DNA from: Felis catus
Lineage: Eukaryota
Assembly (NCBI RefSeq): GCF_018350175.1
Contig: NC_058374.1
Span: 78,678,001 to 78,742,000, forward strand
DNA length: 64,000 nt
Reading direction: 5' to 3'
Part shown: one piece after another, positions 1-47,934 of the stretch
Layout of the letters: each line of letters opens with the position of its first letter
Position numbering within the stretch: the first letter of the stretch is position 1
The notes under the pieces: model-generated
What the model was told of the DNA's origin: nothing
Databases searched by the model: none
Seen by the model: only the letters and a program-made list of their open reading frames with translations
Position numbers and translations under genes: made by a program

Positions 1-2110
1 ACACAAAATCAATTCCAAGCAAACTATAATTATAAATGTCAAATGCAAAACTTTAAAATCTTTAGAAGAAAACATTAGTGAATGTCTTTCTTTTTTTTAT
101 TTATTTAGAGAGACAGAGAGTGTGTGTGGGCAAGCTCTAGCAGGGGAGAGGGGTGGAGGGAGAAAGAGAGAGAATCCCAAGCAGGCTCCGTGCTTGAGTG
201 TAGGGCCCGATGCAGAGCTTGATCCCACGACCCTGGGATCATGACCTGAGCCGAAATCAAGAGTTGGATGCTCAAATGACTGAGCCACCCAGGCGTCCCT
301 CTCTTTCTGACGTTGGTATAAATAAGGATTTTTACGCAAGGCATGATGAATGCTTAATCTGAAAGAAAAGATGGGTAAATTAGACACTAAAATTAAGAAC
401 TTTTATTTATCAAAATATTCAAAGTGAAAAGACAAGCCATAAATTTGAAGGCGATATTTGTGATACATATAAGTGACAAAGTATAATATCTAGAAGTATA
501 AACTTATATAGAAATATAAAAAACACTTAGCATCTAGTAAGAATAAAGCAAACAACCCAACAACAAAAAAATGGGCAAAAGGAAATCCATACAGGTAATA
601 AACACTTAAAGAGATACTCAGCCTCAATAGGAATCACGAAAATGCAAAGTCAGATCAAAAATAAGACTGATTATATCATTTCATTATTGAGAATCAGATG
701 CGTCAGAGAAGATACGAATCTTTTATGTATTGCTGATCAAAGTATAAGTCTTTATTATATGACTTTGGCAAATAACTTTTGTGTTATTCAGTATTTGATT
801 CAGAAATACCAGTCCTAGATGTGTATCACAGAAAAATCCTCACACACATCCATCGGGGACACTTAGAAAAATGTTCGTAGCACCAACTTTGTAAGAGAAA
901 ACAGAACAAAACAATAATAGAGTTATATAAAGTGTCCTGTATTCACGTAACAGAATACTACGAATCCTAGTGAAGACCCTTAGTTCTACAATATTAGATA
1001 AAAAAAAAAAGCAAGTCCTTTTGTAAGTGATATACTTAAAAAACCCAAAACCCCAAACCCAACCAAACAAGAAAAACTAAATAATAATAATAATAATGTT
1101 TACAGGTACATGCATGCATGTAATCAAACTAGAAGAAAAGAAAACAAGGGAATGATGAGAAATTCAAGGAAGGGCTCCCCCCGCCCCCAGATCAAGAAGC
1201 AGAAACAGGCTGGGGAGGCAGTGTGTAGGCATGTGTAAATTGTTAGGGACGTTTGGTTCTTGTGTCTATAAGTGGCTTCATGGGTATTTCATTTTCATTA
1301 TATTAAATACATAATAAAATCAACATCCTATTTATAAGAAATGAAGTCTCAACATAAGGTCCTGTTGAAAACCTAAAGATAAAACATAAAGCCATACAAA
1401 GTGAAAGAACGTGTGCAGGTGAGTGGTTCGAGAGTCAGAACGCACCGCGCGTAGTAGGAGTGAGCAATTCTTCATGAAACTTATTTCCCTTTAGGTGCGT
1501 GAGCATGGAGGTAGGTACGGATTCACGATATAAAATCCGTTTCTTATTTTGAGCTGTGGTTAAACAATAGTTTGACTGCCAGTAGCCCAAACATCCTCTT
1601 GCCACAGTACGACAGCGGAAACGTACCTACAGGTTCACACCGGCATTGTTTGTTAGCACAAAAACAAAGGTGCACAGATGTATACCCGCAGGGGAATGGA
1701 GAGAGAATCACACACTGGGATACTACGCAGCAGTGACAAACGAACCAAGCTGTACGCATCAAAAGCTCACATACAGAATGTCGGGGAGGGAAAAGCAAGT
1801 CATAAAAACAACGTAATCCTATTTTTGTAAAGCTTAATGTTAGGCAAAACTGAACAAATGCTGAGGGACTCATGCACACCGGAGGCTAAAGAAAAGCAAA
1901 GGAACGCTCACTACAAACCCCTGAGAGTGGTTACTTTGGAGATGGGATAGGGTCAGGGACCGAAGATGCTATGATCAGGAAGGGTCCCACGTGGGGCTTC
2001 GAAGGTACTGGTGGGTACACAAGGATCTGTTCTTATTACTGTTGCGATTTAAATCATTAAATGTAGGTTATAGGCACACATTCTTTTGCACGTATGAGAA
2101 GTTTATAAAA
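1..2110 (+). mobile_element. Old L1 (L1M-type) 3'-end fragments, interrupted by a SINE; boundaries approximate
   Basis: A-rich sequence with degenerate L1 ORF2 3'/3'UTR motifs (aaaatcaattcc, tagaagaaaacat, aagacaagcca, aaaatgggcaaa, aatgttcgtagca). Confidence 0.7.
88..299 (-). mobile_element. Can-SINE (SINEC)
   Basis: tRNA-derived head, (CT)n linker and A-rich tail in reverse. Confidence 0.9.
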
Positions 2111-3785
2111 CAGAAAGAAAATGCTGACCAGCGTGTGCTGTCTGGTTCCTGGTTCCTCCTGCAGTTTAGAGGCTCGATCCTGTCCCAGGTGCCTACCTAG
2201 TCTTGGCACTGGAACCCCAGACCCAGTCTCTTTCCCTCCTGTCTGCCTTCCCTCTGCTTCCAGACGAGCCTTCCTAAACTGCATCGCACACCAGGGTGGT
2301 GGTCTGCTCAAGCACCTTCTGTGGCTCCCCATTTCTCACCCCATAAGCCCAAACTCCTTGGCTCTGCACATTTCCCCCACCTGAAGGATCCTTCCTTCCC
2401 TCTCCTCCTCTTTCCTTCAAGGCCCATTCCAGGTCAGGGACCTCCACTCTCCCACCTGGGCTGACAGAACAGCCCCTTCCGGCCCCTGTCAGAACTCTGC
2501 AAGGTGAGGTCACAAAGCCCCCTGGGAGGGAGCAGCTTTGTCCCCAGAGGCGAGGATTCTGGGAGCTCCCTGGGCTGGAGCTGGGCTTAGGTGCGCCCCG
2601 GAGGCTTGGAGAGACGACAGCTCTTTTCATCATGGTGAGACTTGTCTATGTGGCACATTGGGTCACATGGGATGAGGGGGTCTTGGACTCTGCCCAGATC
2701 TGTTGGACCTAGCCAGGCACAAGCTTGTCTGCTGTGTCTACAGCTTTTGGGAATGGGACCCGGAAAGGGTGGCCTGTGGGAGTCTGTTCATATCCATTTC
2801 CCATACCCCCTCTGCCCTGGAAAGCAATTTGCACTGGGTTTGGCGTGAACAGTTCCTGTTGTCTGGGTTGAAGAGTGTGTGTGACTTTAATGTTCCTCAG
2901 GGTGTAGAGCAAAGAACATGCACTTAAGACGCAGTCTAGCTCAGCTCGACTGGCAGGGTCACTCATGTCCCACTGGGTCCCTACTTCCTCAGACAGTAGA
3001 TGTAATGAGCTTCAGCTTGCCCAAGGAAGGATAAGGGAGACAGTAACACCCACCTGGCCTACTTCACAGGTGGTCTTGAGCCCAGGTGAGACGGTGGAGA
3101 TAGAAGACCTTGAAGAGAATAAGGCCCTGTGCGTCAGTTACCGAGCCCAGGCGGTTTATGGGCTGGTATGTGAGGACAGGTGCAGGAAAGGGAAAAGGCC
3201 CCCTGATTTTGTCCCTTCTAGATAGCTCTCCCCATAGTGGCCTTGGGTTTAGCGAAGGAGCTAGAATCTGGATCCCTGTCGCTGATTAGTAGCATTCATC
3301 AAGTTAAAGGAGTTTCTTTATATTCAGAGATTTTTGAAAGTACTTTTAAATTAGGAATCACTGTTGGATCTTTAAAAATGGTGTTTGTATTAATTGCCAT
3401 GATCCTATGTGAATGACCATAACTGATTTGCTAGAGTCTAACTACCCCTGTTGCCTGGGATAAACCCTATGTGATCTCAGCCCAATGACTCGACAGATTA
3501 TCGGCCTGCGTTGTTCTTTGTGCCATCCCTTCGACATTACCTTTGGCATCTCTAGACCCGATAGAGCATCCGCCAGTGTGCCCGTCAACCCTCGGCAATA
3601 GGAAAGACGATCATCCCCATTTTCCAGACAGAGAAACAGAGGCCCAGAGTAGTCAGATGACCTGCTCATGAGGGAAGGTGGAGGGGTTGGTCCTGGAGCT
3701 GTCTTGCGGGCTTCGGTTGAGTGCCCTTGTTGGCTGTCCTCCTCGCCCTGACCCTCTCCTGTCCTGTGCTGCCTCCGCCCCACAG

Positions 3786-6700
3786 TGCGAGGAGGTACAG
3801 GCGAGCGTGCAGAAACACACGCAGGGCCTGCGACACAGTAAGGAGGAGCTGAACAGGCTTAACCAGGCCATCCAGCGGCTGACTGCGGAGGTGAACAGTG
3901 CTAAGAGTCAGGTGAGGGGTGGGGGTGGCGCACCGGAGTGATGAACGGTGGGAGGGTGTCCATTATCTATGACAGCTCCACTAGTCGTCCCCCTCCTCTG
4001 GAGTAGATGGGTAGAGTTTCTCTTTGTGAGTGTCCGAACAAACGGAAGTGTGGCTTTACACATGTACATCACGCTGCCTTTGCCTGGGACTCTGTAGTAG
4101 TTCACGTGGGCATGTAACTGACCCATAGGTAAAATACGTATAAATCTGTACGTTTGTTTGCCTATCAGTTTTCATGCGCACGTGCGATTTTGTATCTGCA
4201 TGCTTTGTTTGTCCTACATAGCATTAAACTTGAGCCCTTCTTTGGGAATCGCAAGACGTTCCGTAGAAATCCGGTTTTCTGGGTTCTCTTTATTTTATTT
4301 TATTTTATTTTATTTATTTATTTATTTTAATTTTTTTTTCAACGTTTATTTATTTTTGGGACAGAGAGAGACAGAGCATGAATGGGGGAGGGGCAGAGAG
4401 AGAGGGAGACACAGAATCGGAAACAGGCTCCAGGCTCTGAGCCATCAGCCCAGAGCCCGACGCGGGGCTCGAACTCACGGACCGCGAGATCGTGACCTGG
4501 CTGAAGTCGGACGCTTAACCGACTGCGCCACCCAGACGCCCCTCTGGGTTCTCTTTAAATAATGCACGGAGTTGGCAACATTCTGCTAGGGAAGGGAGGC
4601 TTCTGTCTTCTCTGTCGCCTTCACACAAGGCCGTGCTCCTTTTGTGTGCATCGACCCCACCACCCTGAGCTGCGTCCTTTGATGCAGAGGCAGAGGGCTC
4701 TTGCCATTTTCTCATCATCTTGGCTGTTGCTGTTATCATCCTTGTGGAAGGCAAAAGGTACCAACACCCGCGTCTCTAAATTAGAGATGTGAGAGGCTGA
4801 AACCGTGAAAGAGGTCCTGGTGATTGTGGGAGACGGACGATGTGCGGATTTCTTTCTGGAACTGGACACTATTGCTAGAGGATTCACATTTGGCCTTCAC
4901 CTTGGGATGCCTCCAGCCAGGCCTCTGGAGGCATTCGGGTTTGCAGCTCAGCTCAGGCTCTAGGCTTAGGAAAGAGAGGTTCCCACATGGATGTTTTCTT
5001 TCCTCCGACTTCTCTGCCTCTCAATCTCCCCTCTCTCCTCCCAGCTGCCCTGTCAAGCCCCCTGGGCTCATACTTTACCTGCAGAGGGAAGGGGTTCTGC
5101 TCCCTGTTTCCCCTGCTTTCTGTGGATACAAGTGTCTGAGGCTCTGAGGGGTCCTCCCTTCTTCAGGAACTGATGACTGTGAGGAGGGACAAGCTGTTCA
5201 GGTTCAAGGGGGTGGCACAGTGAATGGATGGGCCTGTCATGGTTCAGTCTGCCACCGGCCTCTGCTGTTCTGATCACAGTCCCCCAATCCCCCACCCCCA
5301 GTTTCCTAAGCAGCAAGCAAAGCTCATCAAGGCCAGCGTTTATTATTGTTCTATTTCTGCAGAGACTATGGAGCTAGTTTCTGGTGAGGAAAGGATATCC
5401 TTCTTGTTAGTTTCCCTGATGAAATAATAAACCTAGCATTATGTGCTCAGGAGCATTTGATGCTTCCTGGATCCTAGCTCCTTTGAGAAGAGTTACCATA
5501 TTAGACGTGAAAGGCTCTGTCTCAGCCATCTCGGATGGCTGGTCCCAAATCTCCACACTGGGAGCTGCGCTGACACAGACACATTTTTTGGAACAGGAAG
5601 GCCCGTTCCATACAGTGATCTCTAATCCCTCATTGGCCCTCTGGCCTCCAAGAAGGGTCTGGATCTTTGATGGGGGAGGGGGTGGGGGCCAAGGATGTCC
5701 TGTCCGTGCTCTTCCCTTCGCCCCCAGCCCTGTGAACTAGACAGAGCCAGGGAGCCACGAGCTCTGCAGGAGGAGAGTGCCTCAGATAGTGCCCAGGGCA
5801 AGCTGGCCTGGCTGGAGGCCGCCCTGCAGCGAGCCAAGCAGGACATGGCCCGGCAGCTGCGGGAGTACCAGGAGCTCATGATCGTGAAGCTGGGCCTGGA
5901 CTTCGAGATCGCCACCTACCGCAAGCTGCTGGAGGGCGAGGAGAGCAGGTGGGGGCTGGGCGGTGCTTTGGGTGTGGCCACGGGCGAGGAGTGCAGGGGC
6001 CCAGGGAGGTCACCATCTGGGTCCTCACCAGCTGGGGAGGGGGGGTGGTGGGGAGAGAAGACCTGGGGATCCAGGGCCTTGCTCTCCTGGAGCCAATTTC
6101 TCCCCACCAGCTTAAGGCCCTCTAGGGATGGGCACCTGGGATGGGACGACACATGGTCACACACCCCCAAGGGCAGAGAGCAGGGGCCAGTCTGTCGCTG
6201 CAAGGACCAAGGCCTAGCCAGGGGGAATAATGTCTCCAGTTTGGAGTGCCTTCTCAGTTCTGCCCTTCTTGCCCTGAAGGCAGGGTTTATGGGAACAGGC
6301 AGGGCCTGGCTTTTAACCTCAGACTGCAGTAGAGACCCAAGGGCTGCTAGCTCCAGCTGGGTACCCCAGGCTGAGGGGAGGGACAGGGAACCTGCCATGC
6401 AACAGGCATGCAGCATTTATTATCTTTCAACCCCACAAAACCCCTGGGAGGGAGGTGCTGTCATCCCCGTTTTATAGATGGGGAAACTGAGTCTCAGGGT
6501 AAAGGACCACCTCAAGGACACACAGGTAGAAAGCGACTGGGTGTGGCTTGACCAATAGTCTTCAGATGATTGAGCTATCTCCTCTATAGTGTCTTTTAAA
6601 ATGTTCCCTTCATGGTCTCCCCTTTTAGGCTAAGTTTAGGCCAAAGAAAGCGTCGTCAGCCTTCTCCCTCCTCCAAGAGGTCATCGATAAAATCGGACTA

Positions 6701-7611
6701 TCTGAATTTAAGGAGGAAAGATCGAGTTTAAGCTCCAGAGGAGTCTGATGCAAAAGGGCTGTGGGGATCTGAGAGAACCAGGGGCATGTACATCTCTCTG
6801 CCCGTCCGGGGAGGGCCAGGAAAGTTTTGTTTTGGAGAATGGGGATTATTATACCCAGGAGGGATGTTCACTCACCTGCTTCCTCCTTCTCTCCGCAGGC
6901 TTGGTCTGGGATTTGGGGCAGGAAGCTTCAGTAAGTAAATAATAGACATAGCTTGGGTTAGAGGAGTTCAATCTTATCCCCCACACCCCTTCGTGTGCAT
7001 TCTCTTGGGAAGGGATTTGGGATTTGGGATCTGCTTCCTCTGTGTGTCTCCCTCTTGTGGGGGGCTGTTTATTCTCTCGGGGGTGATTCTTTGTGTGTGT
7101 TGAAGGGGGAGGTCTTGTGGTCTGTTCTTTGGGGGCAGGTTCTGTTGGTTTGCCCTGGGGTGTGGGAGGGTGTTCTTGTGGGTCTGTCCTTGTGGAAGAG
7201 ACTGTTTGATTCTCACGTGGGGAGAACCTGAGTGTCCGAGTTCAGGGAGGGGGGCCTTCTGGAGTCTGTTTCTTGGAGGAAGGGGTCTGCACCAAGACCC
7301 CTTGGTCTTTGGGGAGTTTGCACCTCTGACTCCTGGAGAGGAGGAGGGTCTTTGAGGCTACTCTCTGGGAGAGGAGTCTGTATGTCTGTCTTCTGGGGGC
7401 GGAGCGGGAGAGGACGGCTTCTCCTCTGACAGCCACGCTTTGCTCAGCCCTGGGCAGCGGGCTGGGCTCAGCCTCTGGCCCGGCCAACCTGCTGCCTCCC
7501 CGAGCGGGCTCCGGCGCCCTGGACACGAGCGCCCCTGGCGGCGGCTGCGCGCTCTGCGGCTCCCCCGGATGCTTCGGGGGCTTTGGCTGCAGCGGTGCCC
7601 GCAGATGTTGA
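3786..7611 (+). CDS. KRT88: Divergent type II keratin, 3' part only (exons 6-9); KRT88-like by position; 5' exons not in window
   Basis: Exons with AG/GT ends and canonical type II keratin sizes: 3786-3911 (126 bp, [11 protein letters not shown]...AKSQ), 5728-5948 (221 bp, ends [21 protein letters not shown]), 6899-6930 (32 bp, [10 protein letters not shown]), 7433-7611 ([10 protein letters not shown]...[11 protein letters not shown] 7609-7611). Spliced frame is open (185 aa). Keratin identity is secure; the symbol is inferred from synteny next to KRT81, and exon 6 and the tail do not match KRT7. Confidence 0.6.
4293..4542 (-). mobile_element. Young felid SINEC_Fc-type element with 15-bp TSD
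   Basis: CpG-intact body; TSD TCTGGGTTCTCTTTA at 4278-4292 and 4543-4557. Confidence 0.95.
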
Positions 7612-7916
7612 ACCTTCCTGCCATGCTCTGGAGAAAAAGAACCCTAGCTTCTGCCCCAAGGACTTGACCCTCTGTCTCAGACGCCCCCTCCCACGGAGCT
7701 AGCCGTCACCTCATCTTTCCCTCTTGCCTGCCCCCACCCCGGAGCGTAAAGTCTTGGAATCTAATTTACCGGACGGTGACTGCCCGGTTTCCAGGGTGAA
7801 GATAGCCCGGATGCTGAGCCACTGAGGAGGCCGTGTGGCTTACCTGGACCCAGCACCCTGTCCCTCTGACCTGCCCCCACCCCTTCACTCTTATTTTCCT
7901 AGGACTCCTCCTTTGC

Positions 7917-7922
7917 AATAAA
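7917..7922 (+). terminator. Polyadenylation signal of KRT88-like gene
   Basis: AATAAA ~305 bp after the stop codon. Confidence 0.75.
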
Positions 7923-7992
7923 AGTTCTTCAGTGGACTGAGCCCCTGGGCTGTTTGTGCCTGGATTCCTCAAGCTAGGTACAGAGCCAAGAC

Positions 7993-8042
7993 GAAGCTGG
8001 CTGGATTTGGGGGTAGGGAAGCTGGCTGGATTTGGGGGTAGG
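7993..8042. repeat. Perfect 25-bp tandem duplication
   Basis: GAAGCTGGCTGGATTTGGGGGTAGG x2. Confidence 0.9.
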
Positions 8043-11000
8043 GGAGAAAAGGAGCGAACACTACCAGGAAGCAGCCCTCCCCTTGCGGAGTGTGGGTCCA
8101 CATGACTTCAGTTTATGGTGATGTCACTGAACCAGGATCCTGAGGTTGGTGGTGGTGGTGGGTTGACAGAGGACCCTTGGGGAAAGTGAAAGAAGGGGTT
8201 CATTCCTCCTCAGACCTGCTTATTCCCCAGCCTGGGGCCCGCATTTCACCATGTCTGGTTGCTGAGCGCTGCCTTCATTCATCCAGTCACTCGCCCTACA
8301 GACACTTACCGAATGGCTTCTGAGGGTCAGGGGCAGTATTGAGTGAGCCAGGCACTCTGGTTCTGGCCCTGCACAGGACGTTCTGGTGGGGAGGCAGGCC
8401 CAAACCAGCCCCAAAGAGAATGGAGGAGGTGGGGAGGAGGGCAAATCACCCTCTGCCGGCCTGGCAGGGGCACTTGAGGACAGGCTCCGGGGAAGACGGC
8501 CCTCGAAGATTCTGGCGGGGGGGATATGAACACAGCTGGGTGGCCCAGGCCTGGGTTCTAGTTTAACAAATGACCCGATGGTGGGCTGGGAGAGCATGTC
8601 TTTGGAAGCAGATGGAGCTTCTGGCTCTGCCTCTATTTCCAGGTCTATGGTGTTGTTTGCTGTGGGTTTTTACAAGGCAACTGGACTTTGAGGGGCAGAA
8701 GACAGGCCAGTTTGCGGGGGTGGTGGGTGGCCAGAGAAGGGCTGGATCTCTGGGCTCTCTCTTTGCCACACAGGCCCGAGAGAAGCTTCCACTCGGTGAA
8801 CTCACAGTCTTTTCTATTGCACAAAGGGTTACATCATCAGCACATGCAGGGAACAATGGTTCCTGCTTTCTATGTCCCTGGGTGGGGTTAAGGTGCGTCA
8901 TTGGCCAGAGGCCTTGGCTTTACCTTTTAAGGTACACTATGTCTGCTGTGTTCTCCTGGGTCCCTGCCCAGAAAACAGGTATCCAAAAAGGCCCCCTTCC
9001 TGGGTAAACAGAACTGTATCATGCAAGAGGAATGAGACCGAAACTTGGCATAAGGACTGCCACGCAGCAGGGGGGCAGGGGACACGGACCCATTGGACGC
9101 ACACATCAGCCCCATTTGGCCAATTCTGACCGACACCAACTGTATAAACAAACGTTCTTACCGACACTCTCAGTGCAAAGCAGCTGAGAGCCGAGCTGCC
9201 CCTTTGCGAGGTTTTGCGGTTGGGCTCCAGGTTCCCTGCATTTTGCTAGGAAGGTAATGACGTTCTGTGATCTTCAAGGTCAGGTTTTGCCAGCTCCTGC
9301 TGTGCTGATAATGTCAAGGAAAGGACTTGGAGGGAGGTGCCAAGGGAACTCTCACCTGGAGTCGTTGGCTGGGTTTATGGTGAGCATTCTGCGGCCCACA
9401 CCACGGAGGGCTGGCTGTTCACGTTTTCCCGTTTTGAATCCCAAGCCTGACGTCAGTCCAGATCCCATGGGCTGCTGGGTCAGGCTTGCGTGTCTTGCGT
9501 GGGCCACCAGCCATGTTTGTGGTTTGGGGACCGATTCTCTGAGTGGCTTCCCTGGCCACGGGCCACATTCCAGCCTGGGGTGGGAGAGAACTGTGTGGTG
9601 CATTTATAGAGAGTCTTACCAGCCTATTTACAAGCTTTGTTAGTCAAGGTGACTTCTGAAGGGAGGTGGGTGTCACCAGTTAAGACATCACTTCTCAGCA
9701 GAACGGGACCACTAGGGGGTCAGCCTTCTTCTGCTCTGGCCTGCCTCATACTTGATAGCACTTAGACGTGACAGATGTGACTTAGATGTTGGCATCTCTA
9801 TATAAGCCCCTCAGAGCCAGTGACTGTCTTGTCAACCCATCTCTAGGGCCTGCCATGCAGTGGATATGAACGGATGAACGGGTGAACGGGTAGAGTGAGG
9901 CTCTGTGGTCCTGTGTGGTCAGCTCTGGCCTTGGACGCATTGGGTCATTCTTCCATTAACCTATCTCACCCCATGGAAACCCCTCAGGAGTCTCTGGATG
10001 AGTCTACACACAATCCTTCCTGATGAAATTCCAGCTGCAATGTATCAGCCAGGCCAGCCTAGAGTAAGGAAGGAAGGGTCTGGATTCTGTTCCCAATCTT
10101 GCTGTTACCCTGGCCCAAACACTGCCTGTTTCTGAGTCTCAGCCCTGCCCTCCCCGGATCTAACTGGTGAAGATTCATCTGTCCCTTTTCATTTTCCTCC
10201 TTACTGAACCTCTCTGCACCATAGTTGACCGGCAAAATGAGAATAGTCCCTGTCACAGGATTGTGTGAAAAATATATTACTATATGCAAAGGCCTTAAAA
10301 CATAGTAAGAGTTACATAAATGCAATGAATATCTCAGGTACTGGAGTCTTGGGAAAGGCTTTGAGCACCTTCAACAGAAGGCTCTACAAGTCTAAGGCCA
10401 GCTGGTCTCCTGCTGCCCCAGCTGGAGCTAGACTGTCTACAGGGCAGGAGGGGAAGTAGGGAACCCCACGGGTTAGAGCTGGGGCTCCCTGGCCAGAGGG
10501 CACCTCCCCAGGATGACACCCAGCGGCACCTACCCTCACCACTCCTGCCTTAGCCCGGTTCTCCGCCTCCTCCCCCATCAGCACATGAGTCCGCCTGTCA
10601 CTCACACTGCGGTACCCACAGAGCTCCCCGCTTCAGCACGGACACACAGGCATGTGCACATTCACACACACAATCACACATGTAGAAATGCTCACAGTCT
10701 CTCTCACACACACACAGGTGCTTCCACACAGATGCCCGGAGATGTGCACGTACCTGGATGCGATCATATTGTTCTACTCACAGACAGCTGCCCACAGACA
10801 GTGAGCTCTGCGGAAGGAAGGTATAGCCAGCATGCACACCGCACGGCTACATGGCATCTGGGGTCCCCACCTCCCCCTGCCTCTAGCTCCTGGTCCTGTC
10901 CCACCTCTCCTGAGGACCAATGGAGCTTTTACATCGGTAAGGGGCCTCAGCAGCCATCTGGTCCAAACATTTTATGTCACTAGTGAATACACTGAGGCCC

Positions 11001-11819
11001 AGAGAGGGGAGGTAACTTGCCACAGGTCACACAGCGAGGCGTTCCGTTTTTGTCACCGTTCTGCTTCAGGAGTATTATGTACTTGTTTCATTCACTCTTG
11101 CTCCTCTTCCTGAGCCTTTCCAGGAGTGGGAACTGGAAGGAGGCTGAGAGTAAGTAAGGCCATCAGGGCCCGGCTGGGCTGATGAGACCAGTGCGATGGG
11201 AAGGGAGGGGTCGGTTGGCGGAGATGAGAAGCTCATTGGGTAGTTTCCGAACTGGGGAGGGATGGAGTGATGGAGCTGGGGTTTGGGCCTCAGGTCTGGA
11301 CTCCTGATGGCCTGCTTCTGAGCTGTGTGGTGTCACAGCACAGAGAGCTGGTTAGAACAACCTCATAGTCTGGATCTCTCCCAGGGTCCTGGCCTGCTCA
11401 GAATTCCATCAGGAGGGGAGAGGGGACATACTAGTGGGTGGGGGGCCTTGGATTGATCCTCTACCTTAAAAGAGCTTGGTCTTTTCAGACCACTTGCTTC
11501 TGGGCTCTCAATATTATTTATTTCTATTGCCCTGAAGGATGGGGGTGGGTTTAGATTTCTGCTACAGTTTTCCGGGCCTGGAAGTTTAGAGATTTGCCCT
11601 GCTGTACAGATATGTATTCAGGGACTTGCCTTCGCCATAGCAAGATGGAGGGACCATCTCCTTACTTTCTTTGCTACTTGTAAGATCCTCATAGTGTCAC
11701 GGGGAAAACAGTTCTCTGCACATAGGAGCTCAGTGGCCCTGGAATACGTGGAGATTTCTCTCTCTATTTGCTGTCTCTGATCACACAGCTGAGTGTAATA
11801 TGAGGGAAATGTAATCTGT

Positions 11820-12091
11820 TTATTTATTTATTTATTGTTAAAAATTTTTAAAGATATTTATTCACTTTTTTAATGAAAAAACTTTTTTTAAATGTTTATT
11901 TATTTTTGAGATAGAGAGACTGAGCATGAGCAGGGGAGGGGCAGACAGAGAAGGAGATACAGAATCCGAAGTGGGTTCCAAGGTCCGAGCTGTCAACACC
12001 GAGCCTGACGCGGGACTCGAACTCACGGAGTGTGAGATCGTGACCTGAGCTCAAGTTGGACACTTGATCAACTGAGCCCCCCAGGCGCCCC
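11820..12091 (-). mobile_element. Can-SINE
   Basis: SINEC body with long AT-rich tail; TGTAATC flanks. Confidence 0.9.
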
Positions 12092-12928
12092 TGTAATCAT
12101 TTACAGATGGGCACAAGAGGCTGGCCATAGCCCTGGTCCTTGGAGGGATTTCCACTTTATATTCTTCAAGAGAATAGGGTTCATGACAAGCGCATGTCAT
12201 GATTCTTTTGCAGCAGGCACCGTCTGCACACGTTAGGCATGAAATGCCTAGTCCTCCCATCTACTCATGAGGTAGGCGTGCTTTTATCTTTCTCACTCTA
12301 GAGATGTGGCAACTGAGGCACAGAGAGGGTGAGGAAATTAACCAAGGTCACTCAGCCAGGAAGGAGCAGAGCCCCATTTTGGACCCAAGTCATCTGGCTC
12401 CAGAGTCTATGTCCTTACCTCTGTGCCACCTCATTGTCTTGCTACGTGCTGTTTTCTATCCTGGAGGTAATTTATCAGCTCTGGCAGGTCTCCAGACCTC
12501 AAAAGGACTCCATTCAAAAAGCAAAAAGTAGCCACATCAAAGGCTTTTTGAAAGTTTAAGTCATGTTCATATAGTTACCCTTTAAGGAATTCTAATAAAT
12601 TGCTCGGGCATGAGTCTTCCCCAGCAAAGCAGTGAGTGATGTTTCCTTAAGTTCTGAGTGACTGATGAATCTAATTTTCGTTATCCATCAGTTGACAGAT
12701 ATGCACAGGGATGTTTTCTGGGAGGCAACAGTGTGTTAGTGAAATGACCACTAAAGGTGCACGCAGGGTTCAAACACCGGCTGGACCATGGAAGCTCATG
12801 GGGCCCTGCCCCGGTTACTGACCCCAGACTAGACCTTTTTCTGTTCCACGTGACTTTGGGGACTCTCCCAAACCCTGACCCTTGAGGATAACAGAGGTGC
12901 AGACAAGGCTCAGAGGTGGCTACATTGA

Positions 12929-12934
12929 TTTATT
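12929..12934 (-). terminator. Polyadenylation signal of KRT81
   Basis: TTTATT on + (AATAAA on -) ~330 bp past the stop. Confidence 0.75.
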
Positions 12935-13266
12935 GGAAACACAGATCAAGACAGATGAACATGACAGAGGTGGAAGGGGAGTGGTTGGGGGTGGGATATG
13001 GCCATCAGCCCCATGACAGCCTAGGGTAGGACCTTGTCCTGGTCCTCTGGGCCCCTCAACCCCCTTCGTATGGGCGTCAAGGGGACTTTTTAGGGGTAGC
13101 CTCTCCCAGCACGGGGCAGCAGAGCCGAGGAAGAGGGGATCACACATAGACATGAGAGGCCTGGAGTGGGACAGACCTTTCAAAGTGCCAGAGAGGTAAT
13201 TGAGAGCTTGCTCCATGGGGAAGCTGGGTGGGAGAGACCCCAGGCCCGAGACGTGAGTTCGGCCGC

Positions 13267-18368
<5,102 letters not shown>

Positions 18369-18458
18369 GGTGCTCCTGGAGGCTGGGGTAGCAGAGTACA
18401 GGACCGAGGTCTGGAGTCTTGTGGAAACTCCAATGTGCTCCGTGAGGCACCTCCGTCC

Positions 18459-27586: not shown

Positions 27587-33817
<6,231 letters not shown>

Positions 33818-41478: not shown

Positions 41479-47934
<6,456 letters not shown>

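What the first reader, a model, noticed from the sequence alone, without database searches (positions are those of the whole stretch)
3786..7611. KRT88-like gene looks chimeric: hair-type exon 6 and Cys-ended tail, but KRT7/KRT8-type 3' exon 7
Seen: exon 6 aligns with the neighbouring hair keratins ([24 protein letters not shown] vs [25 protein letters not shown]), exon 8 has the hair-type 32-bp size, and the tail is Cys/Gly-rich ending RRC. The 3' two-thirds of exon 7 reads [42 protein letters not shown]. Established: that is the simple-epithelial KRT7/KRT8 form; hair keratins have LEGALQKAKQDMACL.REYQEVMNSKL..TYRRLLEGEEQR. KRT7 lies just upstream on the same strand in the mammalian cluster. 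Inference: gene conversion or exon exchange from KRT7, or a retained ancestral state bridging soft and hard keratins.
Basis: partly seen in the sequence, partly recalled or inferred. Interest (0 to 1): 0.72.

Follow-up and report, generated by a model that had tools for sequence, protein, structure and literature searches.

The report
Headless mini-keratin KRT88 of placental mammals
This cat-family gene encodes only the last third of a hair-type keratin, a short form whose predicted counterparts recur across placental mammals; it likely works in developing sperm cells rather than hair, and its best-conserved stretch was likely overwritten by neighbouring keratin genes rather than by KRT7 alone.

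Summary
The window model gives 181 aa, identical to cat XP_023112865.1. Of 143 KRT88-type proteins fetched, 140 are 271 aa or shorter; the three longer ones look like fusions with an upstream hair gene. Named hits span 11 placental orders. Mouse Krt88 is listed as testis-specific; under its recalled alias it peaks in round spermatids. A 2017 catalogue saw the dog structure and doubted it.

The chimera is half right. Exon 6 is hair-type (KRT7 rejected, p=0.005); the last 46 codons of exon 7 cannot nest inside the K81 group (p=0.003). But that motif is the ancestral vertebrate state, also found in K8, K80, K84 and K124, and shows no synonymous excess to KRT7. Its GC3 of 44/45 against 93/123 elsewhere suggests cluster-wide conversion; plain retention is not excluded. 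Function is untested: likely a coiled-coil adaptor or cap in spermatids.

The parts
2632..2634 (+). ATG that ends the first exon (inferred start codon; the rest of the exon is 5' UTR, its start not determined)
   Evidence: One of only 2 ATG-GT[AG] sites in 1-3785, followed by GTGAGA; dog exon 1 is 79 bp UTR plus 3 bp CDS; many orthologue models begin M|CEE. A single Met cannot prove which of the two sites is used.
3786..3911 (+). Coding exon 2 = keratin exon 6 (first part of coil 2), hair type; alternative donor after 3890 gives a 105-bp form
   Evidence: Pfam Filament positions 199-239; 25/42 identity to hair keratins; tree support 100/99; dog exon is 105 bp; GT at 3891
4308..4542 (.). SINE-type repeat in the intron, accounting for part of the longer intron than in dog
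   Evidence: blastn match to other copies in the window; family name recalled
5728..5811 (+). 5' 28 codons of keratin exon 7: degenerate, proline-containing, helix broken; remaining states hair-like
   Evidence: Mean identity of orthologues to cat 0.67; AlphaFold shows no helix at residues 43-64; tree with exon 6
5812..5948 (+). 3' 46 codons of keratin exon 7: end of coil 2B with the helix-termination motif; ancestral K7/K8/K80/K84-type core plus KRT88-specific I24, G28, F31
   Evidence: Mean identity 0.93 over 32 orthologues; GC3 44/45; F31 in 0 and I24 in 1 of 308 other rod ends; pLDDT 81-99
6899..6930 (+). 32-bp exon = keratin exon 8, hair-clade size
   Evidence: KRT85, KRT86 and dog KRT88 also 32 bp; K7, K75, K124 are one residue longer here
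7448..7611 (+). Last exon, coding part: 54-residue Gly/Pro/Cys tail ending RRC-stop; alternative in-frame acceptor 15 bases upstream
   Evidence: mean identity 0.60; predicted disordered; longer isoforms in horse, sheep, deer models
7917..7922 (+). AATAAA polyadenylation signal
   Evidence: Only such site in 7600-8600
13268..18368 (-). Neighbouring KRT81-like hair keratin (context; fixes the synteny)

Best explanation
The gene is KRT88, a five-exon gene whose open frame gives a 181-residue keratin fragment with no head, coil 1 or coil 2A, and which likely acts in spermatocytes and spermatids as a coiled-coil adaptor or filament cap through its conserved rod-end helix, a helix likely overwritten and kept GC-rich by gene conversion from several type II keratin neighbours. 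Shown: the exon structure, the open frame, the short length of orthologue models across placentals, hair-type exon 6, ancestral-type 3' exon 7, and strongest conservation in that helix. From papers: testis and spermatid expression in mouse. Inferred: origin by partial duplication of exons 6-9 of a K81-group gene in early placentals with capture of a new ATG exon; replacement of about eight hair-specific residues in exon 7 by a tract from a K7/K8/K80/K84/K124-type donor; continued short-tract exchange; pairing through the intact a/d seam while the KRT88-specific I24 and F31 form an outer patch for another partner; disulfide fixing through the tail. It would not build filaments by itself.
For: Model identical to XP_023112865.1, cluster named Keratin 88. 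140 of 143 KRT88-type proteins are 271 aa or shorter; 96 of the 120 listed are of this type, from 56 named genera in 11 orders; a search limited to 223-711 aa listed 43 proteins and no full-length KRT88. No exon 1-5 relic in 1-13000. Dog RNA-based model has the same five exons, intron 3 the same 950 bp. Mouse NP_079763.1 is 171 aa. Identity gradient 0.77/0.67/0.93/0.75/0.60. Krt88 among earlier testis-specific genes (PMC7436996 supplement); 1700011A15Rik RPKM 0, 0, 18.3, 80.7 in 2C, leptotene/zygotene, pachytene, round spermatids (PMC4837615 supplement); not expressed in mouse ear skin (PMC12941220). Conversion: GC3 44/45 vs 93/123, p=0.0005; 1-4 synonymous differences in 35-43 codons to seven dog paralogues vs 8 of 25 in exon 6; dog K7 and K8 differ at 1 of 137 bases here; mole K7 and K8 are identical here; muroid K88 carries hair-type R38 and Q45; platypus and opossum hair keratins already have the derived states and every named KRT88-type hit is placental. 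Self-pairing model of residues 60-122: score 0.33, best of 3 controls 0.01 (mark reached by 21 of 30 solved pairs and 0 of 23 single chains in microbes; 17 of 29 eukaryote pairs, 7 of 16 animal, 1 of 7 without older relative, 0 of 30 single chains; runs agree 100%, pLDDT 83 or more); it uses the a/d seam and leaves residues 95, 99, 102 outside.
Against: No reads were laid, so expression and splicing in the cat are not shown (one search gave no data). The link 1700011A15Rik = Krt88 is recalled, and a Slide-seq preprint assigns that gene to Leydig cells. Krt88 appeared only in the list of earlier genes, not in the authors' own lists, in the 13 of 15 supplementary files searched, and not in another testis data set (0 of 9 files). 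Orthologues are mostly gene models; no protein evidence was seen. Exon 6 does not reject K88 as sister to the whole hair group (p 0.19 and 0.18), so retention fits too. Protein variants of KRT88 match paralogue residues no more often in exon 7 (18 of 53) than in exon 6 (29 of 94; p 0.72). GC3 and synonymous counts are one signal, were counted by eye, compare cat with dog, and could reflect synonymous constraint. The self-pairing score is just at the mark (0.32), antiparallel rather than parallel, and may come from memory of solved vimentin and lamin coil-2 fragments.
Confidence: 0.6

Rival explanations
1. Same mini-keratin, but exon 7 is simply retained: KRT88 split from the stem of the K81-K89 hair group after the exon-6 changes and before the MACLL-type changes, so no exchange is needed.
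For: One topology (K88 sister to the whole group) is rejected by neither exon (p 0.19, 0.49). K84 and K89 together hold almost the whole motif, and G28 is shared with hair keratins. K88 exon 6 keeps K10, D37 and S41 as in gecko K84-like keratin.
Against: Needs an origin before the monotreme split plus loss or non-annotation in monotremes and marsupials. Does not explain why only this segment keeps GC3 44/45 and near-zero synonymous distance to every paralogue. Best trees nest K88 inside the group, with weak support.
Confidence: 0.27
2. One reading: one conversion or exon exchange specifically from KRT7 built the 3' part of exon 7.
For: K7 is among the nearest proteins (3 of 46 differences) and the nearest dog DNA (6 of 137 bases vs 7 for K8, 10 for K124, 12 for K80; by eye). 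The one A-ending codon is shared with dog K7. K88+K7 is not rejected (p 0.35).
Against: K8 is equally near in protein; no synonymous excess (3 of 43 vs 1-4 for six others); horse K7 has another codon at that site; G28 is hair/K84-type; K7 is not monophyletic on this segment (7 changes for 7 rows).
Confidence: 0.2
3. KRT88 is a transcribed pseudogene fragment with no protein function; conversion alone keeps exon 7 looking conserved.
For: Dog curators suspected this; low skin coverage; New World monkey, pangolin and shrew models are decayed; testis transcribes many non-functional loci (recalled).
Against: Open frame, exon sizes and terminal Cys kept over 11 orders; KRT88-specific residues that no paralogue can donate (W71, I95, F102, CALC tail motif) are conserved; exon 6 keeps 0.77 identity.
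Confidence: 0.08

Closest known systems
Mouse Krt88 (NM_025487 / NP_079763.1, 171 aa) and dog KRT88 (LOC608165, five exons, 153 aa)
   Same: Orthologues: same exon plan, position before KRT81, and KRT88-specific residues.
   Different: Nothing essential; the dog model was flagged as possibly wrong or a pseudogene, and no paper found treats the short form as conserved.
K81/K83/K85/K86/K87/K89 type II hair keratins
   Same: Exon 6, 5' exon 7, 32-bp exon 8, G28, Cys-ended tail.
   Different: No head, coil 1 or coil 2A; helix broken at 43-64; lacks the MACLL-type states; reported in testis, not in ear skin.
K7 and K8 (simple-epithelial type II keratins)
   Same: 43 of the last 46 rod residues, including all a/d core positions.
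   Different: Exon 6 rejected as K7-related; exon 8 size and tail differ; the shared motif is the ancestral state.
K84 (and K124/K90, K80)
   Same: [11 protein letters not shown] core; K84 also shares G28 in three of the species sampled and the exon 8 length.
   Different: Exon 6 rejects K88+K84 (p 0.03); all are full-length.
Solved coil-2B fragments K5/K14 (3TNU, 6JFV) and K1/K10 (4ZRY)
   Same: KRT88 residues 3-114 align without gaps to the 2B fragment (E 1e-26).
   Different: Those are engineered pieces; KRT88 is a natural gene of that extent with an internal helix break.
Horse 'KRT88' (LOC100062875, 483 aa) and human KRT88P
   Same: Name and strand only.
   Different: A separate full-length hair-type gene upstream; spacing suggests human KRT88P matches it, while horse LOC102149928 ('KRT129P', five exons) matches the mini-gene (arithmetic).

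Membership tests
KRT88 orthogroup (mouse Krt88 type) | Sequence identity to proteins named Keratin 88 | tested here: met
   Identical to P0126, whose cluster holds 'Keratin 88' Felis catus; mouse Keratin 88 aligns end to end
KRT88 orthogroup (mouse Krt88 type) | Position upstream of KRT81, same strand as KRT86, five exons | tested here: met
   20.0 kb before the KRT86-like ATG vs 20.7 kb in dog; exon sizes match
Filament-forming type II keratin | Head domain, coil 1A, coil 1B, L12 and coil 2A (exons 1-5) | tested here: not met
   No relic in 1-13000 (only 2.6 kb upstream of the ATG is in the window); 140 of 143 orthologue models short; 6 of 143 carry such motifs, all read as joins to the upstream hair gene
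Filament-forming type II keratin | Continuous coil 2B helix | tested here: not met
   Two helices, 4-42 and 65-118, with a low-confidence gap
Filament-forming type II keratin | Helix-termination motif and intact a/d heptad core | tested here: met
Filament-forming type II keratin | Obligate heterodimer with a type I keratin, assembly into 10-nm filaments | not testable with these tools
   No type I keratin was among the session's sequences; only a self-pairing model was run
K81-group hair keratins | Derived exon 6 | tested here: met
   Support 100/99
K81-group hair keratins | 32-bp exon 8 | tested here: met
   shared with K84
K81-group hair keratins | MAC-L-[LVI]-[KR] ... MNSK states in exon 7 | tested here: not met
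   10-13 differences in 46; nesting rejected
K81-group hair keratins | Homologous Cys-rich tail | tested here: inconclusive
   2 of 25 protein comparisons reached p<0.05, one of them not a hair keratin; DNA vs K81-like p=0.013 with the stop in register, vs K86- and K83-like p=0.06, 0.08
K81-group hair keratins | Expression in hair follicle | tested here: inconclusive
   Literature only: not expressed in mouse ear skin, 3.1x coverage in dog skin; no cat reads
KRT7-derived conversion tract | Excess synonymous identity to KRT7 over other paralogues | tested here: not met
   3 of 43 vs 1-4 of 35-43 for six other dog genes, by eye
KRT7-derived conversion tract | Same-species KRT7 closer than other-species KRT88 | not testable with these tools
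   Neither cat KRT7 DNA nor dog KRT88 DNA was available; the catalogue's dog 'KRT88' entry is a KRT71-like sequence
KRT7-derived conversion tract | Segment groups with K7 in a tree | tested here: inconclusive
   Not rejected (p 0.35) and not recovered; segment nearly invariant

The most novel reading that the evidence does not exclude
Early placentals built a spermatid protein out of the tail end of a hair keratin: a natural coil-2B-only intermediate-filament protein that no longer polymerises, pairs with itself or caps keratin filaments of the sperm head or tail, had its pairing seam switched from hair type to K7/K8 type by gene conversion, gained an outer hydrophobic patch for a new partner, and was lost again in monkeys and apes.
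Probability: 0.3. Interest if true: 0.8.

Novelty: new variant of a known kind. Interest (0 to 1): 0.6.

Why it matters
Keratin catalogues count Krt88 as an ordinary keratin or a doubtful model. If it is a selected, headless, germ-cell protein, it is a natural version of the rod-end fragment, shows a hair gene co-opted into spermiogenesis, and offers a ready mouse knockout test of whether keratin-type proteins matter in spermatid shaping. It also shows the rod-end segment of type II keratins to be homogenised across distant paralogues, which warns against using it in trees, and exposes two different genes under the name KRT88.

Tried and rejected
No whole genome is held. The metagenome scan gave 80 loci; the 18 best, translated, were non-KRT88 keratins of apparently non-mammalian type and served only as outgroup states. 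Tail homology at protein level was not above shuffles. The paralogue-matching test on protein variants was null. A CRE-like site at 2505-2512 is at chance level (19 matches vs 16.8 expected) and is not used. Schultz 2003 is not held. Searches of earlier scan findings showed nothing. Rejected: a full-length KRT88 (horse 483 aa is another gene; P0002, P0003, P0297 and the squirrel-monkey models read as joins to it); 'hair keratins lack the motif'; KRT7 as immediate neighbour. No fold search was run because the model is two helices with pTM 0.32. In the Fisher test for dog K80 the denominator was entered as 39; the right count is 38, which does not change the reading.
Full report
Setting. The window is part of a type II keratin cluster of a cat-family animal. 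It holds the target gene on the plus strand, then hair keratins at 18368-13268 (minus, KRT81-like), from 27629 (plus, KRT86-like), 47934-41479 (minus, KRT83-like) and from about 61745 (plus, KRT89-like) (names from order, from head and tail likeness, and partly recalled). No whole genome is held.

Check of the observation. Exon 6 matches the neighbours at 25 of 42 residues; the last 46 residues of exon 7 differ from K7 and K8 at 3 positions and from K81-group proteins at 10-13. K84 has [19 protein letters not shown] (3 of 3 named K84 proteins), K89 ends [11 protein letters not shown] (3 of 3), and K80, K124, frog, gecko and bird keratins have the same core. It is the ancestral state; 114 of 308 non-KRT88 rod ends fetched have R14-Q15 and 116 the hair C14-L15 (this set reflects my queries, not a census).

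A search with exon 7 among proteins of 131-2000 residues listed 120 of 4943 hits; 96 are of the KRT88 type, from 56 named genera in 11 placental orders including elephant and manatee (genera counted from the list). Over all searches, 143 KRT88-type proteins were fetched (isoforms included), median 185 aa, 140 of them 271 aa or shorter; the three longer ones (walrus, sheep hybrid, naked mole-rat) carry upstream pieces that resemble a separate hair gene. A search limited to 223-711 aa listed 43 proteins and no full-length KRT88; its word filter passed only 46 candidates, so this is a modest test. Many models begin with a lone Met before exon 6. The window has an ATG followed by a donor at 2632-2634; joined to the four exons it gives 181 aa without internal stop, identical to Felis catus XP_023112865.1, whose cluster contains an entry named Keratin 88, as does the 171-aa mouse NP_079763.1 cluster. 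No relic of exons 1-5 was found in 1-13000, though only 2.6 kb upstream of the ATG is in view. Balmer et al. 2017 (PMC5573215; passages and parts of supplements seen) curated dog KRT88 as 79 bp UTR + 3 bp CDS, 105, 221, 32 and 101 bp and remarked that the annotation might be wrong or the gene a pseudogene. Mean identity of up to 32 orthologues to cat is 0.77 (exon 6), 0.67 (5' exon 7), 0.93 (3' exon 7), 0.75 (exon 8) and 0.60 (tail) (some models have tails in another frame and lower the last figure). AlphaFold gives helices 4-42 and 65-118, a disordered gap and tail, pTM 0.32; residues 3-114 align to the solved K5 coil-2B fragment. New World monkey, pangolin and shrew models look decayed; no ape, whale, marsupial or monotreme KRT88-type protein was among the named hits, which is weak evidence of absence.

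Expression. No reads could be laid, so nothing is shown for the cat. In mouse, Krt88 is in the list of earlier male-tract-specific genes, credited to Schultz 2003, in a supplement of PMC7436996 (one row and passages seen); it was not found in that paper's own lists in the 13 of 15 files searched, nor in 9 files of PMC10338237. 1700011A15Rik has RPKM 0, 0, 18.3 and 80.7 in 2C cells, leptotene/zygotene, pachytene and round spermatids (PMC4837615, one supplementary row); that this name is Krt88 is my recall. A Slide-seq preprint lists it among stage-dependent Leydig-cell genes (one passage). Krt88 is not expressed in mouse ear skin (PMC12941220, one passage). Schultz 2003 itself was not seen.

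Is exon 7 chimeric? Trees were built on 51, 32 and 33 of the 68 rows prepared (near-duplicates dropped; no K82 or true K87 row; short alignments). Exon 6, alone or with the 5' part of exon 7, places KRT88 with K81/83/85/86/89 at 100/99 and rejects K88+K7 (p-AU 0.005, 0.0001) and K88+K84 (0.03). The last 46 residues reject nesting with K81/86 (0.003) or K89 (0.03) but reject neither K88+K7 (0.35) nor K88 as sister to the whole hair group (0.49); exon 6 does not reject that sister position either (0.19, 0.18). So retention fits formally, but platypus and opossum hair keratins already have the derived states, which would make KRT88 older than the monotreme split although all named hits are placental. 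If it arose inside the group, about eight residues had to return to the ancestral state, which points to replacement. DNA favours exchange but not one donor. Counted by eye against dog mRNAs, synonymous differences among same-residue codons are K7 3 of 43, K8 4 of 43, K80 1 of 38, K124 2 of 40, K75 2 of 39, K84 4 of 39, K86 1 of 35, against 8 of 25 between KRT88 and hair exon 6 in the window. GC3 is 44 of 45 in this segment and 93 of 123 in the rest of the gene (p 0.0005), while hair exons of the window run 85-95%. Dog K7 and K8 differ at 1 of 137 bases here; mole K7 and K8 are identical; dog K84 has A28 where hedgehog K84 has G28; muroid KRT88 carries hair-type R38 and Q45. Against: KRT88 protein variants match paralogues no more often in exon 7 (18 of 53) than in exon 6 (29 of 94), and high GC3 alone forces identical codons. 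For KRT7: it is the nearest dog DNA (6 of 137) and shares the segment's only A-ending codon, which horse K7 and dog K8 do not. Concerted evolution of K81/83/86/87 is in print (PMC5540548, PMC4195889; passages seen).

How it likely works. Without head and coil 1 it would not polymerise (established knowledge of intermediate filaments). The conserved helix keeps every a/d core residue in the K7/K8 state, whereas hair keratins changed two of them; I24 and F31 fall on consecutive f positions and occur in 1 and 0 of 308 other rod ends. A two-copy model of residues 60-122 scored 0.33 against a best control of 0.01 (counts and limits under Best explanation), used that seam, left residues 95, 99 and 102 outside, and was antiparallel; solved vimentin and lamin fragments exist, so the pass may show likeness only. 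I infer a coiled-coil adaptor or cap in spermatocytes and spermatids, with an outer patch for a new partner and a tail open to disulfide fixing. Partner and place are untested.

Naming. From the catalogue's coordinates, the gene lies 20.0 kb before the KRT86 start in this window and 20.7 kb in dog, whereas horse 'KRT88' (483 aa) and human KRT88P end 30.5 and 33.4 kb before it and sit about 5 kb from KRT87P. The five-exon horse LOC102149928 has its assembly gap 19.7 kb before KRT86. Two genes therefore likely share the name.

Novelty. The gene is named and annotated. Searches for KRT88 and its aliases found 5 and 10 papers (two listed, six opened at the matching passages, including PMC8733776, PMC6747492 and PMC11812088), and four broader searches (listings only, apart from the two papers named above) showed none that treats it as a conserved truncated or germ-cell keratin. 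Subscription papers, among them older cluster surveys, and preprint supplements are outside the library and may do so. Verdict: a new variant of a known kind; the chimera is a likely but secondary feature without a proven donor.

Noticed in passing
window 14277-18372 vs 31717-27625: The head-to-head KRT81-like and KRT86-like genes are 97-99% identical over about 4 kb including introns, a sign of recent conversion between the inverted copies.
   Followed up: no
window 14088-14276, 31718-31909, 42844-43032: Assembly gaps of 189-192 N fall on exon 7 of all three hair keratins, as expected if that exon is near-identical among copies.
   Followed up: partly
PMC5573215 supplementary files 4 and 10: The dog sequence filed as KRT88 is a 525-aa KRT71-like entry, not the five-exon gene of the paper's exon table.
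   Followed up: partly
upstream of window position 1 (P0178, P0200, P0223, P0002, P0327): A full-length hair-type keratin lies just upstream in horse, camel and ruminants and seems reduced to fragments in carnivores; it carries the name KRT88 in horse.
   Followed up: partly
P0414 (unnamed ENA protein): An exon 7 that is hair-type in its 5' half and K124/K75-type in its 3' half: a second case of such a mosaic, or an assembly chimera.
   Followed up: no
P0147 and P0155; dog KRT7 and KRT8 mRNAs: K7 and K8 share lineage-specific states at the rod end (identical in mole, 1 of 137 bases apart in dog), and in dog also a long identical run in exon 5.
   Followed up: partly
P0012 (tiger model), P0090 (elephant): KRT88 with H6-Q7 as in K80 and K71-74; the tiger model differs from cat at three clustered residues: conversion or assembly error.
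   Followed up: no
window 7993-8043: Perfect 25-bp tandem duplication just past the polyadenylation signal.
   Followed up: no
window 2505-2512: One-mismatch CRE-like site about 125 bases before the ATG; at chance level for the window.
   Followed up: yes
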